A stretch of DNA of 8,584 nucleotides. Origin: a virus. Taxonomy: Duplodnaviria; Heunggongvirae; Uroviricota; Caudoviricetes. The position numbers and the translations under genes were made by a program. The stretch lies in the IMG/VR virus record IMGVR_UViG_2698536348_000014; one strand, given 5' to 3'. Every line of letters begins with the position of its first letter. Position 1 is the first letter of the stretch. A model generated the notes under the pieces. That model saw only the letters and a list, made by a program, of their open reading frames with translations, was not told the DNA's origin and did not search any database. This document shows positions 5,561 to 6,873 of the stretch, in pieces.

Positions 5561-6232
5561 TCAGCGACCAATCACCACAACCTGACCACCGTCCCCTTCG
5601 TCTGCCGTGCTGATCTCCTGAGAAACCACGCGTGACCCCACGCGCATTTCCCCGTACAGAACAGGCAGAACATTGCCCTGGGCAACCATGTTATCCAGTG
5701 AGGAGAAATAGGTGTTCTGCTTACCGTTATCCGTTGTCTGTGTACGGGGAGTTCTGGCTTTCGGTGCCAGCATCTGCGCCACACCACCGAGCACCATACT
5801 GGCACCGAGAGAAAACAGGATGCCGGTCATACCACCGGCCCCAATGGCTGCCCCCCATGCTGCAAGGGTGGCTCCGGCGGTAAAGAATGATCCGGCAATG
5901 GCTGCAGCCCCCAGGACAATCTGGAATACGCCACCTGACTTGGCCCCGGCGACTCTGGGAACAATATGAATCACAGCGCCATCAGGCAGAGTCTCATGTA
6001 ACTGCGCCGTTAACCCGGACGCGCTGACGTCCCGCCCGGCAATCCGTACCTGATACCAGCCGTCGCTCAGTTTCTGACGAAACGCCGGGAGCTGTGTGGC
6101 CAGTGCGCGGATGGCTTCAGCCCCCGTTTTCACACGAAGGTCGATGCGGCGGCCAAATCGTTGCAAATCCCCGTAAAGGCAGATGCGTGCCATTCCCGGT
6201 GACGCCAGAGGGAGTGTGTGCGTCGCTGCCAT
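5561..6232 (-). CDS. I: Lambda-like tail assembly protein I, 223 aa: N-terminal ubiquitin-like (beta-grasp) domain with a Gly-Gly at residues 100-101, then a Gly/Ala-rich hydrophobic C-terminal region
   Basis: Translation MAATHTLPLASPGMARICLYGDLQRFGRRIDLRVKTGAEAIRALATQLP... matches my recollection of lambda gpI. Same length as lambda gpI (223 aa). ATG at 6230-6232. Confidence 0.9.
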   Translation of the reverse strand: MAATHTLPLASPGMARICLYGDLQRFGRRIDLRVKTGAEAIRALATQLPAFRQKLSDGWYQVRIAGRDVSASGLTAQLHETLPDGAVIHIVPRVAGAKSGGVFQIVLGAAAIAGSFFTAGATLAAWGAAIGAGGMTGILFSLGASMVLGGVAQMLAPKARTPRTQTTDNGKQNTYFSSLDNMVAQGNVLPVLYGEMRVGSRVVSQEISTADEGDGGQVVVIGR

Positions 6233-6873
6233 TTGTCGGTATACCTCTCCCGTTTACTCAGTTGTTCAGGAATATGGTGCAGCAGCTCGCCGTCACCACA
6301 GTAAATAGCGGCGTGATTCGGCACCGATGAACCAAAACAGCACAGCAGCACATCGCCCGGCTGCGCCGCTGACAACGGCACCTGATACAGCCCTGTGGCC
6401 TCCAGATTATCCAGATAGAGATTCTGACCGTTACGCCACCAGTCATCCTCACGCACAAAATCCGGCATCTCAATCTCCGCCAGATGATAAGCATCCCGGA
6501 ACAGTGTGTAACAGTCCGTCACACCGTGCTCAAAGCGCCGCCCGGTGAGATGCGGCACACAGCGGAACTTATGAATCTCACCCCAGCAGACCAGCCACCA
6601 CGGCAAATCACTCTGCACCTGCAGCCGCCGGTCGGCCTCACTCAGCCAGGGCAGACCACCGGGGTGGCTGTGGACCAGCGCCACAATCTCCCCCTGCATT
6701 TCTGCCTGCAGCCAGTCTTCCGGCGACATACGGAAATACGCCTCCGGCTCACCGGAGATATTCACGCAGGGGAAATATCTTTCCCCCTCCGGCGTGCTTA
6801 CCACGAAGCCGCACGACTCCGCTGGCGCACATCGCCGGGCGTGCGCCAGAATCGCTGATTCTGTCTGTGTCAT
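6130..6873 (-). CDS. K: Lambda-like tail assembly protein K, JAB/MPN (JAMM) metallopeptidase domain plus NlpC/P60 domain. 247 aa from the upstream ATG; the classical lambda annotation corresponds to an internal ATG at 6728-6730 giving 199 aa.
   Basis: JAMM motif HSHx7SxxD (H68, H70, S78, D81 in 247-aa numbering) with an upstream E19 in the ESCG motif. NlpC/P60-like Cys (VTDCYTLF, C121) and His (VPNHAAIY, H187). The 3' end overlaps I by 103 nt in a different frame, as in lambda. Confidence 0.85.
   Translation of the reverse strand: MTQTESAILAHARRCAPAESCGFVVSTPEGERYFPCVNISGEPEAYFRMSPEDWLQAEMQGEIVALVHSHPGGLPWLSEADRRLQVQSDLPWWLVCWGEIHKFRCVPHLTGRRFEHGVTDCYTLFRDAYHLAEIEMPDFVREDDWWRNGQNLYLDNLEATGLYQVPLSAAQPGDVLLCCFGSSVPNHAAIYCGDGELLHHIPEQLSKRERYTDKWQRRTHSLWRHREWHASAFTGICNDLAAASTFV

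What the first reader, a model, noticed from the sequence alone, without database searches (positions are those of the whole stretch)
6130..6873. K carries a complete JAMM/MPN metallopeptidase motif only if translated from the upstream start (247 aa)
The JAMM signature HSHx7SxxD sits at H68/H70/S78/D81 of the 247-aa ORF, and the expected upstream catalytic Glu lies in an E-x-C-G motif at E19. That E-to-HxH spacing is typical of JAMM enzymes. By my recollection of lambda coordinates, the classical 199-aa K start corresponds to the internal ATG at 6728-6730, which would omit the Glu. The upstream ATG (6871-6873) sits 5 nt after the L stop with no obvious Shine-Dalgarno, suggesting termination-reinitiation coupling. 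The internal ATG has a GGAGG about 11 nt upstream.
Basis: partly seen in the sequence, partly recalled or inferred. Interest (0 to 1): 0.5.

Follow-up and report, generated by a model that had tools for sequence, protein, structure and literature searches.

The report
Full-length lambda tail protein K gene
The tail-assembly gene K of this lambda-like prophage encodes a 247-residue protein with two peptidase domains; the textbook 199-residue version, which lacks part of the first domain, comes from a base missing in the 1982 reference lambda sequence, so the gene itself is ordinary and already correctly annotated in most genomes.

Summary
The minus-strand ORF 6130-6873 encodes 247 aa with HSHx7SxxD at H68/H70/S78/D81 and E-S-C-G at E19-G22. 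The only slip is that Met49's ATG lies at 6727-6729, not 6728-6730.

Only the 247-aa form matches the whole Prok-JAB profile (52.8 bits, against 23.8 bits, below cut-off, for 199 aa). Residues 1-48 are under purifying selection, and E19, C21, G22 and N38 are among the best conserved positions in 52 distant homologues. Met49 is Ile, Leu, Val or Ala in 45 of 52. The AlphaFold model (pLDDT 96.9) puts helix 1 and the first two strands of the MPN fold in those 48 residues.

New here: J02459/NC_001416 lacks one G (window 6739, between lambda 14266 and 14267). This throws codons 1-45 out of frame and explains the 199-aa call. Every independently sequenced lambda examined has the G.

This is not new biology. 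The JAB plus NlpC/P60 architecture of K-family proteins was published in 2006, and PGAP annotates 247 aa in E. coli genomes.

The value is corrective. NP_040598, the UniProt entry TIPK_LAMBD and recent reviews still use the truncated protein. The proposed role, processing the ubiquitin-like domain of gpI, is untested.

The parts
6130..6873 (-). Gene K, full-length ORF: 247 aa (28.3 kDa) plus TGA stop
   Evidence: The corresponding ORF of a 99%-identical E. coli genome is annotated by PGAP as a 744-nt CDS, C40 family peptidase WP_000194778.1.
6871..6873 (-). Proposed true start codon ATG (Met1). It is the first start codon in the open frame and has no Shine-Dalgarno sequence.
6874..6881 (-). 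L stop codon TAA (6879-6881) plus 5-nt spacer atccc (6874-6878): the L/K junction, a candidate site of translational coupling
   Evidence: A gap of 4-11 nt is seen in 14 of the 15 homologous loci where an L stop was found (35 nt in L040).
6559..6867 (-). JAB/MPN+ (JAMM) metallopeptidase domain, residues 3-105
   Evidence: Pfam PF14464 52.8 bits. PDB profile hits 2KKS, 2KCQ and 5LDA. Foldseek hits to PfJAMM1, AMSH, CSN5 and Rpn11.
6817..6819 (-). Codon for Glu19, the predicted general-base Glu of the JAMM motif, within E-S-C-G
   Evidence: E in 51 of 52 distant homologues. It aligns with the EACG/EGCG of 2KKS and 2KCQ.
6631..6672 (-). HSHx7SxxD: His68, His70 and Asp81 (predicted zinc ligands) and Ser78
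   Evidence: H68, H70 and D81 are present in 52 of 52 homologues, S78 in 50 of 52.
6727..6729 (-). Internal ATG (Met49), the classical lambda K start (J02459 14276)
   Evidence: Met in only 7 of 52 homologues, Ile in 37.
6741..6745 (-). GGAGG 11 nt upstream of Met49. It lies within the codons for E42-P43-E44-A45.
   Evidence: It is still present in homologues whose codon 49 is CTG or ATC, and absent in Citrobacter and Edwardsiella homologues that keep Met49.
6739..6739 (-). The G that is missing from the reference lambda sequence (between J02459 14266 and 14267). Without it, codons 1-45 are out of frame with K.
6202..6543 (-). NlpC/P60 (C40) papain-like peptidase domain, residues 111-224. Predicted catalytic residues are Cys121 (6511-6513), His187 (6313-6315) and His199 (6277-6279).
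   Evidence: Pfam PF00877 46.7 bits. C121 is present in 51 of 52 homologues, H187 and H199 in 52 of 52. PDB hits include MepS/Spr, CwlO and LytE.
5561..6232 (-). Gene I: ubiquitin-like beta-grasp domain, Gly-rich linker and C-terminal plug domain. It overlaps the 3' end of K by 103 nt and is the proposed substrate or partner of K.
   Evidence: Pfam PF06805 98.5 bits. PMC1779556. Only gpI residues 135-223 are resolved in the virion (PMC10721106).
6879..7577 (-). Gene L (tail tip hub protein, 232 aa), immediately upstream of K
   Evidence: Pfam PF05100 338 bits

Best explanation
Gene K is translated from the ATG at 6871-6873, 5 nt after the L stop codon. The product is a 247-residue (28.3 kDa) two-domain peptidase: a complete N-terminal JAB/MPN+ zinc metallopeptidase domain (E19, H68, H70, S78, D81) fused to a C-terminal NlpC/P60 cysteine peptidase domain (C121, H187, H199). 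The first 48 residues form helix 1 and the first two beta-strands of the MPN fold and carry the catalytic Glu, so they are an integral part of the protein. The textbook 199-residue K is an annotation artefact. The 1982 reference lambda sequence (J02459, copied to NC_001416 and the UniProt entry TIPK_LAMBD) lacks one G 12 nt upstream of Met49. That broke the frame and forced the original annotators to the next ATG with a Shine-Dalgarno sequence.

Shown here: the ORF, the motif, the domain membership, the conservation and the reference error.

Inferred: (a) initiation at Met1 happens by coupling to termination of L, since no Shine-Dalgarno sequence is present; (b) the JAB domain is catalytically active; (c) as proposed by Iyer et al. 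2006, K acts as a non-virion assembly enzyme that processes the ubiquitin-like N-terminal domain of the neighbouring gene I product during tail-tip assembly.
For: Domain coverage. The 247-aa form covers Prok-JAB profile positions 3-113 of 114 at 52.8 bits. The 199-aa form covers only 63-113 at 23.8 bits, below the cut-off of 25.

Structure matches. A family profile matches the solved JAB proteins 2KKS, 2KCQ and PfJAMM1 (5LDA) from profile position 1. The AlphaFold2 model has pLDDT 96.9 and pTM 0.91, with helix 3-15 and strands 21-27 and 30-36 inside the first 48 residues. Foldseek finds PfJAMM1 (TM 0.67, rmsd 2.6 A), AMSH, CSN5 and Rpn11 for the N-terminal domain, and MepS, LytE and Acd33800 for the C-terminal domain.

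Conservation. In 52 homologues of 32-58% identity, E19 is present in 51, C21 in 51, G22 in 52, N38 in 52, and H68, H70 and D81 in 52. Mean column conservation of residues 8-48 (0.46) equals that of residues 49-110 (0.46). Met49 is present in only 7 of 52. dN/dS for codons 2-48 is 0.06-0.5 (for example 3 nonsynonymous against 12 synonymous changes versus E. albertii), like the rest of the gene.

Internal start signals. The GGAGG before Met49 persists where codon 49 is CTG or ATC, and is absent where distant homologues keep Met49.

Start position. The L stop lies 4-11 nt before the K start in 14 of the 15 loci where an L stop was found (35 nt in L040), and distant homologues have a Shine-Dalgarno sequence there.

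Reference error. The junction without the G occurs in only 4 phage records: J02459, its RefSeq copy, one UNVERIFIED engineered strain, and one record with reference-identical coordinates. The junction with the G occurs in 64 records, including separately deposited lambda or lambda-derived records such as KT232076, LC730321 (48,503 bp), PV340536 and DE3. Fifteen lambda-contaminant contigs in unrelated bacterial assemblies equal J02459 with 0 mismatches and exactly this 1-base gap.

Existing annotation. PGAP and PV340536 already annotate 247 aa. The cluster of 247-aa proteins has 12,883 members.

Published context. The JAB plus NlpC/P60 architecture of K-family proteins and the proposed Ubl processing are in PMC1779556. 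gpK is absent from virions and only gpI 135-223 is resolved (PMC10721106).
Against: No direct protein-level evidence (N-terminal sequence, intact mass, ribosome profiling) could be obtained for K from lambda or this prophage. The upstream ATG has no Shine-Dalgarno sequence, while Met49 has a good one (-9.5 kcal/mol), so some initiation at Met49 cannot be excluded in the lambda clade. Catalytic activity of either domain, and cleavage of gpI, have never been shown. The unresolved gpI N-terminus in cryo-EM could simply be disordered.
Confidence: 0.92

Rival explanations
1. The classical view. K starts at the internal ATG (Met49, 6727-6729), served by the GGAGG 11 nt upstream, and gives a 199-aa protein. 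The 144 nt upstream are an untranslated L-K spacer, and the JAMM-like HSHx7SxxD is a remnant without its Glu.
For: There is a strong Shine-Dalgarno pairing before Met49 (-9.5 kcal/mol) and none before Met1. This is the annotation in J02459, NC_001416, HK630, DE3 and the imm21 hybrid.
Against: That annotation derives from a reference sequence lacking a base. Codons 2-48 are under purifying selection and contain some of the best conserved residues of the family. Met49 is Ile, Leu, Val or Ala in 45 of 52 homologues. The GGAGG is a by-product of the E-P-E codons. A 199-aa product would lack helix 1 and two core strands of the MPN fold, and it falls below the Pfam cut-off.
Confidence: 0.03
2. Dual initiation in the lambda clade. 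Both Met1 (247 aa, JAB plus NlpC/P60) and Met49 (199 aa, effectively NlpC/P60 only) are used, giving two isoforms with different roles.
For: The combination of GGAGG, an 11-nt spacer and ATG is present in lambda and most E. coli relatives. Internal starts served by an in-ORF Shine-Dalgarno sequence occur in other phage genes (general knowledge, not tested here).
Against: The Shine-Dalgarno plus ATG combination is not conserved outside the close lambda clade. Even within E. coli, some K genes have Leu or Ile at codon 49 (L026, L032, P0020, P0029). The 11-nt spacing is longer than optimal. A half MPN domain would probably not fold. No evidence for a second product was found.
Confidence: 0.05

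Closest known systems
Bacteriophage lambda tail tip assembly protein K (gpK; UniProt entry TIPK_LAMBD, NP_040598, AAA96551)
   Same: This is the same gene. It shows 97% nucleotide identity over the L-K-I region. Against the G-corrected 247-aa lambda K there are 8 amino-acid differences, none in the first 96 residues. The gene order is the same: H-M-L-K-I-J.
   Different: The reference entries are 199 aa, because J02459 lacks a G between 14266 and 14267. The window gene and real lambda DNA encode 247 aa. The prophage here is defective, with ISEc22 inserted in J.
[quoted passage not shown]
   Same: Identical domain architecture and gene neighbourhood. The motif residues of both peptidase domains are conserved.
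   Different: None in kind; this gene is a typical member. That paper does not discuss the lambda start codon or the reference-sequence error.
Stand-alone prokaryotic and archaeal JAMM enzymes (AfJAMM; Pyrococcus furiosus JAMM1, 5LD9/5LDA; Haloferax desampylase; 2KKS; 2KCQ)
   Same: The same fold and the same E-x(n)-H-S-H-x7-S-x2-D motif, with nearly the same spacing as AfJAMM E22/H67/H69/S77/D80. PfJAMM1 is solved in complex with the ubiquitin-like SAMP2 (5LDA title), and K sits next to a gene encoding a ubiquitin-like domain.
   Different: K is fused to a second (cysteine) peptidase domain and works in phage tail assembly. It scores far below the desampylase equivalog cut-off (29 against 130 bits). 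No activity has been shown.
NlpC/P60 cell-wall endopeptidases (E. coli MepS/Spr, B. subtilis LytE and CwlO) and TIGR02219, the putative phage cell wall peptidase family
   Same: The C-terminal domain has the fold and the Cys-His-His catalytic residues.
   Different: gpK was not detected in virions (PMC10721106), so a role in cell-wall digestion at infection is doubtful. It scores only 25 bits against TIGR02219 (cut-off 82).

Membership tests
JAMM/MPN+ metallopeptidases (Pfam Prok-JAB PF14464) | Sequence motif E-x(n)-H-S/T-H-x7-S-x2-D | tested here: met
   E19, H68-S69-H70, S78 and D81 in the 247-aa form. The Glu is absent from the 199-aa form.
JAMM/MPN+ metallopeptidases (Pfam Prok-JAB PF14464) | Profile match above the curated cut-off over the whole domain | tested here: met
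   52.8 bits against a cut-off of 25, covering profile positions 3-113 of 114. The 199-aa form scores 23.8 bits and fails.
JAMM/MPN+ metallopeptidases (Pfam Prok-JAB PF14464) | MPN fold | tested here: met
   AF2 model pLDDT 96.9. Foldseek finds PfJAMM1 at TM 0.67 and rmsd 2.6 A, plus AMSH, CSN5 and Rpn11. The profile hits 2KKS, 2KCQ and 5LDA.
JAMM/MPN+ metallopeptidases (Pfam Prok-JAB PF14464) | Motif residues conserved across the family to which the protein belongs | tested here: met
   E19 in 51 of 52 homologues, H68, H70 and D81 in 52 of 52, S78 in 50 of 52
JAMM/MPN+ metallopeptidases (Pfam Prok-JAB PF14464) | Zinc binding and (iso)peptidase activity | not testable with these tools
   Needs purified 247-aa protein. 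No published assay was found.
NlpC/P60 (MEROPS C40) peptidases | Profile match above the cut-off, and a papain-like fold | tested here: met
   PF00877 46.7 bits against a cut-off of 23, covering positions 1-105 of 105. PDB and Foldseek hits to MepS, LytE, CwlO and Acd33800.
NlpC/P60 (MEROPS C40) peptidases | Catalytic Cys and His residues present | tested here: met
   C121 in 51 of 52 homologues, H187 and H199 in 52 of 52. The assignment as a catalytic triad rests on family knowledge.
NlpC/P60 (MEROPS C40) peptidases | Peptidase or amidase activity | not testable with these tools
Lambda-type tail tip assembly protein K (TAPK) | Position between L (Phage_tail_L) and I (Lambda_tail_I), upstream of J | tested here: met
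Lambda-type tail tip assembly protein K (TAPK) | Orthology to lambda K | tested here: met
   97% DNA identity to lambda and 239 of 247 identical residues
Lambda-type tail tip assembly protein K (TAPK) | Required for tail assembly but absent from the virion | not testable with these tools
   Known for lambda from the literature (PMC10721106 and PMC12617516). Not testable for this defective prophage.

The most novel reading that the evidence does not exclude
The full-length 247-aa K is an active ubiquitin-type protease. During tail-tip assembly it cuts the N-terminal ubiquitin-like domain (ending around ...VAGAKSGG, residue 101) off gpI, so that only the C-terminal plug (residues 135-223 seen by cryo-EM) stays in the virion. 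In that case lambda carries a working Ubl/DUB pair, and decades of failure to place or characterise gpK would be partly due to work with the truncated 199-aa reference protein.
Probability: 0.35. Interest if true: 0.6.

Novelty: already known. Interest (0 to 1): 0.3.

Why it matters
For this window, the finding changes nothing. The gene is an ordinary, correctly sized member of a described family, and the corresponding gene of a 99%-identical RefSeq E. coli genome is already called at 247 aa.

The practical value concerns phage lambda itself. The most used reference records (J02459, NC_001416, NP_040598, UniProt TIPK_LAMBD) describe a K protein that lacks 48 residues, including the catalytic Glu and three core secondary-structure elements of its JAB domain. 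The cause is one missing G. Records annotated by copying the reference inherit the error even when their DNA has the G (HK630, DE3, imm21). A 2020 review analysed 'gpK, 199 residues' and saw only the NlpC/P60 peptidase (PMC7291167).

The function and location of gpK are still stated as unknown in 2023-2026 structural papers. Any cloning, interaction screen, structure prediction or biochemical test of K should use the 247-aa protein. With it, the 2006 prediction that K processes the ubiquitin-like domain of gpI becomes directly testable.

Tried and rejected
- Literature on the lambda base correction. Searches for gpK with JAB/NlpC, J02459 with resequencing, '14266', NC_001416 with insertion, and 'tail assembly protein K' found no paper in the held library that states it. 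Casjens & Hendrix 2015 and the lambda ribosome-profiling paper (Liu et al. 2013) are not held. I therefore cannot say whether the erratum has been published elsewhere.
- Alternative in-frame starts. GTG at codon 24 and GTG at codon 37 (the latter used in KT232076, 211 aa) are rejected, because E19-G22 and the conserved helix lie upstream of them.
- The idea that the missing G is a real polymorphism of some lambda stocks. It is rejected as unlikely. The only records without the G are the reference, its RefSeq copy, an UNVERIFIED engineered strain, and a record with reference-identical coordinates. Fifteen contaminant contigs that are otherwise identical to J02459 have the G.
- Measuring the distance from E19 to the zinc site in the AF2 model. 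The model coordinates are not exposed to the script environment.
- NCBIfam. It gave only sub-threshold hits (desampylase 29 bits, phage_NlpC_fam 25 bits), so no equivalog-level assignment is possible.
- Mass-spectrometry supplement of PMC10721106. gpI is covered by a single peptide (9.9%) whose position is not given, so it says nothing about cleavage of gpI.
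Full report
**What is in the window.** The window carries, on the minus strand, the tail-tip part of a lambda-type prophage:
- the end of H (7903-8577)
- M (7577-7906)
- L (6879-7577)
- K (6130-6873)
- I (5561-6232)
- a J gene cut at its 3' end (2402-5500)
- an IS66-family element, ISEc22 (38-2373)

The L-K-I stretch is 97% identical to phage lambda. The whole window is 99% identical to prophages of enterohaemorrhagic-type E. 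coli genomes.

**Check of the observation.** The ORF 6130-6873 encodes 247 aa. HSHPGGLPWLSEAD starts at residue 68, which places H68, H70, S78 and D81. A-E-S-C-G places the Glu at position 19.

The ATG at 6871-6873 is the first start codon of the open frame. It lies 5 nt after the TAA of L and has no Shine-Dalgarno pairing (+0.7 kcal/mol).

It is preceded by GGAGG at 6741-6745 with an 11-nt spacer (-9.5 kcal/mol). Met49 corresponds exactly to the classical lambda K start at 14276, giving 199 aa. All elements of the observation are therefore real.

The motif spacing nearly matches that of the structurally defined AfJAMM (E22, H67, H69, S77, D80). There, the two His and the Asp bind zinc, and the Glu holds the catalytic water (PMC300881).

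**Does the N-terminal extension belong to the protein?** Four independent lines say yes.

1. *Profiles.* The 247-aa form matches Pfam Prok-JAB end to end (positions 3-113 of 114, 52.8 bits, cut-off 25) plus NLPC_P60 (46.7 bits). The 199-aa form keeps only the second half of the JAB profile and falls below the cut-off at 23.8 bits. A profile built from 52 homologues matches the solved JAB proteins 2KKS, 2KCQ and P. furiosus JAMM1 from profile position 1. In that alignment E-a-C-G lines up with EACG and EGCG of those proteins.

2. *Structure.* AlphaFold2 gives a very confident two-domain model (pLDDT 96.9, pTM 0.91). Helix 3-15 and strands 21-27 and 30-36 all lie inside the first 48 residues. 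Foldseek places the N-terminal domain with PfJAMM1 (TM 0.67, rmsd 2.6 A), AMSH, CSN5 and Rpn11. It places the C-terminal domain with MepS, LytE and other NlpC/P60 enzymes.

3. *Conservation.* Among 18 homologues of 69-94% identity, I8, L9, H11, A12, A16, P17, E19, S20, C21, G22, V24, Y33, P35, C36, N38, S40, Y46 and F47 are invariant. Among 52 homologues of 32-58% identity (drawn from 2,739 cluster representatives), E19 is present in 51, C21 in 51, G22 in 52 and N38 in 52. These rank with H68, H70 and D81 (52 of 52) as the best conserved positions. Mean column conservation is the same for residues 8-48 and 49-110, at 0.46. Nei-Gojobori dN/dS for codons 2-48 is 0.06-0.5, similar to the rest of the gene.

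4. *The internal start is not conserved.* Position 49 is Met in 7 of 52 homologues and Ile in 37. The GGAGG is made by the codons for E-P-E. It stays where codon 49 is CTG or ATC, and is missing in Citrobacter and Edwardsiella homologues that do have Met49. By contrast, the start right after the L stop is conserved. The gap is 4-11 nt in 14 of the 15 loci where an L stop was found, and 35 nt in L040. Several of the more distant homologues (L040, L044, L046) have a recognisable Shine-Dalgarno sequence there.

**Why the textbook says 199 aa.** I aligned the window with lambda records. J02459 and NC_001416 lack a single G that is present in the window (position 6739) and in a resequenced lambda hybrid. 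The reference reads GGAGGC-TATTTCCGTATG; the gap falls between lambda 14266 and 14267, 12 nt before the classical ATG. In the reference, the frame from ATG 14133 reads MTQTES...GEPEA and then shifts. The K frame is open upstream only to 14258.

I then searched with 54- and 55-nt queries centred on the junction, designed so that only an exact junction can seed a match.
- The form without the G occurs in 4 phage records: J02459, its RefSeq copy, an UNVERIFIED engineered strain, and one record whose coordinates equal the reference.
- The form with the G occurs in 64 records. These include separately deposited lambda or lambda-derived records such as KT232076, LC730321 (48,503 bp), PV340536, DE3 from BL21(DE3), and the imm21 and imm434 hybrids.

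A scan of bacterial genomes brought an unplanned control. Fifteen contigs in assemblies of unrelated bacteria (Pseudomonas, Shewanella, Chromatium, Neobacillus, Bradyrhizobium and others) are lambda DNA contamination. Each equals J02459 with zero mismatches and exactly this one-base gap. The reference therefore lacks a base. This is most simply a 1982 reading error in a G/C-rich run, although a stock-specific mutation cannot be formally excluded.

**State of annotation and literature.** Annotation is now mixed.
- 247 aa: PGAP on E. coli genomes (WP_000194778.1 in a 99%-identical genome; a cluster of 12,883 member sequences) and PV340536.
- 199 aa: NC_001416, HK630, DE3 and the imm21 hybrid keep this call, even though the DNA of the last three has the G.
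- 211 aa: KT232076.

The JAMM motif of lambda K was listed in 2003 using the 199-aa entry AAA96551 (PMC300881). The JAB plus NlpC/P60 architecture of the K family, next to the ubiquitin-like protein I, was described in 2006, together with the proposal that K processes I (PMC1779556). A 2020 review still analysed 'gpK, 199 residues' and found only the peptidase at residues 52-182 (PMC7291167). I found no paper in the held library that states the base correction. The two most likely sources are not held.

**How it most likely works.**

*Shown here:* K is a 28.3-kDa fusion of a complete JAMM metallopeptidase domain and an NlpC/P60 cysteine peptidase domain. All catalytic-type residues of both domains are conserved.

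*Inferred:*
- Translation starts at Met1 by coupling to termination of L, since there is no Shine-Dalgarno sequence and the gap is 5 nt.
- K acts as an assembly enzyme rather than a structural protein. gpK was not detected by mass spectrometry of virions or resolved in the cryo-EM maps (PMC10721106, PMC12617516).
- Its likely substrate is gpI. The gene for gpI overlaps the end of K. Its product has an N-terminal ubiquitin-like domain ending in ...VAGAKSGG, then a Gly-rich hydrophobic linker, then a C-terminal domain. Only residues 135-223 are resolved, as the plug of the tail tip. That fits removal of the Ubl domain, but is equally explained by disorder.

**Rivals.** Exclusive use of Met49 is contradicted by every comparative test (confidence 0.03). 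Additional minor initiation at Met49 in the lambda clade cannot be excluded, because Shine-Dalgarno sequence and ATG coincide there. It is not conserved, however, and would yield half an MPN domain (confidence 0.05).

**Verdict.** The feature is an ordinary member of a described family and is already annotated at full length in most genomes. The useful by-product is the identification of the missing base that explains the truncated K protein of the lambda reference. Novelty: already known. Interest: 0.3.

Noticed in passing
window 5561-6232 (minus strand); candidate starts at ATG 6230-6232, ATG 6191-6193 and GTG 6131-6133: The start of gene I is annotated in three ways: 223 aa (classical ATG, Shine-Dalgarno pairing -8.5 kcal/mol), 210 aa (Met14), and 190 aa (a GTG overlapping the K stop, used by PGAP and PV340536). 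Distant homologues keep only the Met14-equivalent ATG, 58-67 nt inside K, and many lack the GTG. The Pfam Lambda_tail_I domain begins at residue 14. The 190-aa call therefore probably truncates the ubiquitin-like domain, and a K/I overlap of about 60 nt or more is conserved.
   Followed up: partly
loci L010, L012-L014, L016-L021, L028, L030, L033, L034, L047 (genome contigs): Assemblies of many unrelated bacteria (Pseudomonas, Shewanella, Chromatium, Neobacillus, Paenibacillus, Bradyrhizobium, Leeuwenhoekiella and others) contain lambda contigs, several with low stated coverage and some about 48.4-48.5 kb long. This is evidently contamination with lambda DNA. The record 'Campylobacter phage CJLB-4' (MW057783) is also lambda over the stretch compared.
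   Followed up: partly
window 38-2373 and 2402-5500: An IS66-family element (ISEc22: tnpA 1969-2373, tnpB 1625-1972, transposase 38-1576) interrupts the 3' end of gene J. The J ORF here is 1032 aa against 1132 in lambda, so the prophage is defective for the receptor-binding end of the tail fibre. The same insertion is found in O111:H11-type E. coli genomes.
   Followed up: partly
loci L051, L052 (E. coli and Shigella chromosomes); P0062: Some chromosomal K homologues are frameshifted pseudogenes, with ORFs of 98 and 144 aa and a scrambled JAMM region in P0062. This shows decay of K in old prophages.
   Followed up: no
locus L040 (Edwardsiella piscicida), 35 nt between the L stop and the K start: In this homologue the L-K gap contains a GC-rich hairpin followed by a T run (cccaccttggtgggctttttt) and then GGGAG before the K ATG. 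This looks like a possible terminator or attenuator between L and K, and it is absent from the E. coli clade.
   Followed up: no
window 6882-7070 (C-terminal part of L, minus strand): The Cys-rich C-terminus of L (CTWTYRGDECGY...CSKCLSGCKF) is intact. It corresponds to the iron-sulfur cluster domain reported for gpL (mentioned in PMC7291167 and PMC10721106).
   Followed up: no
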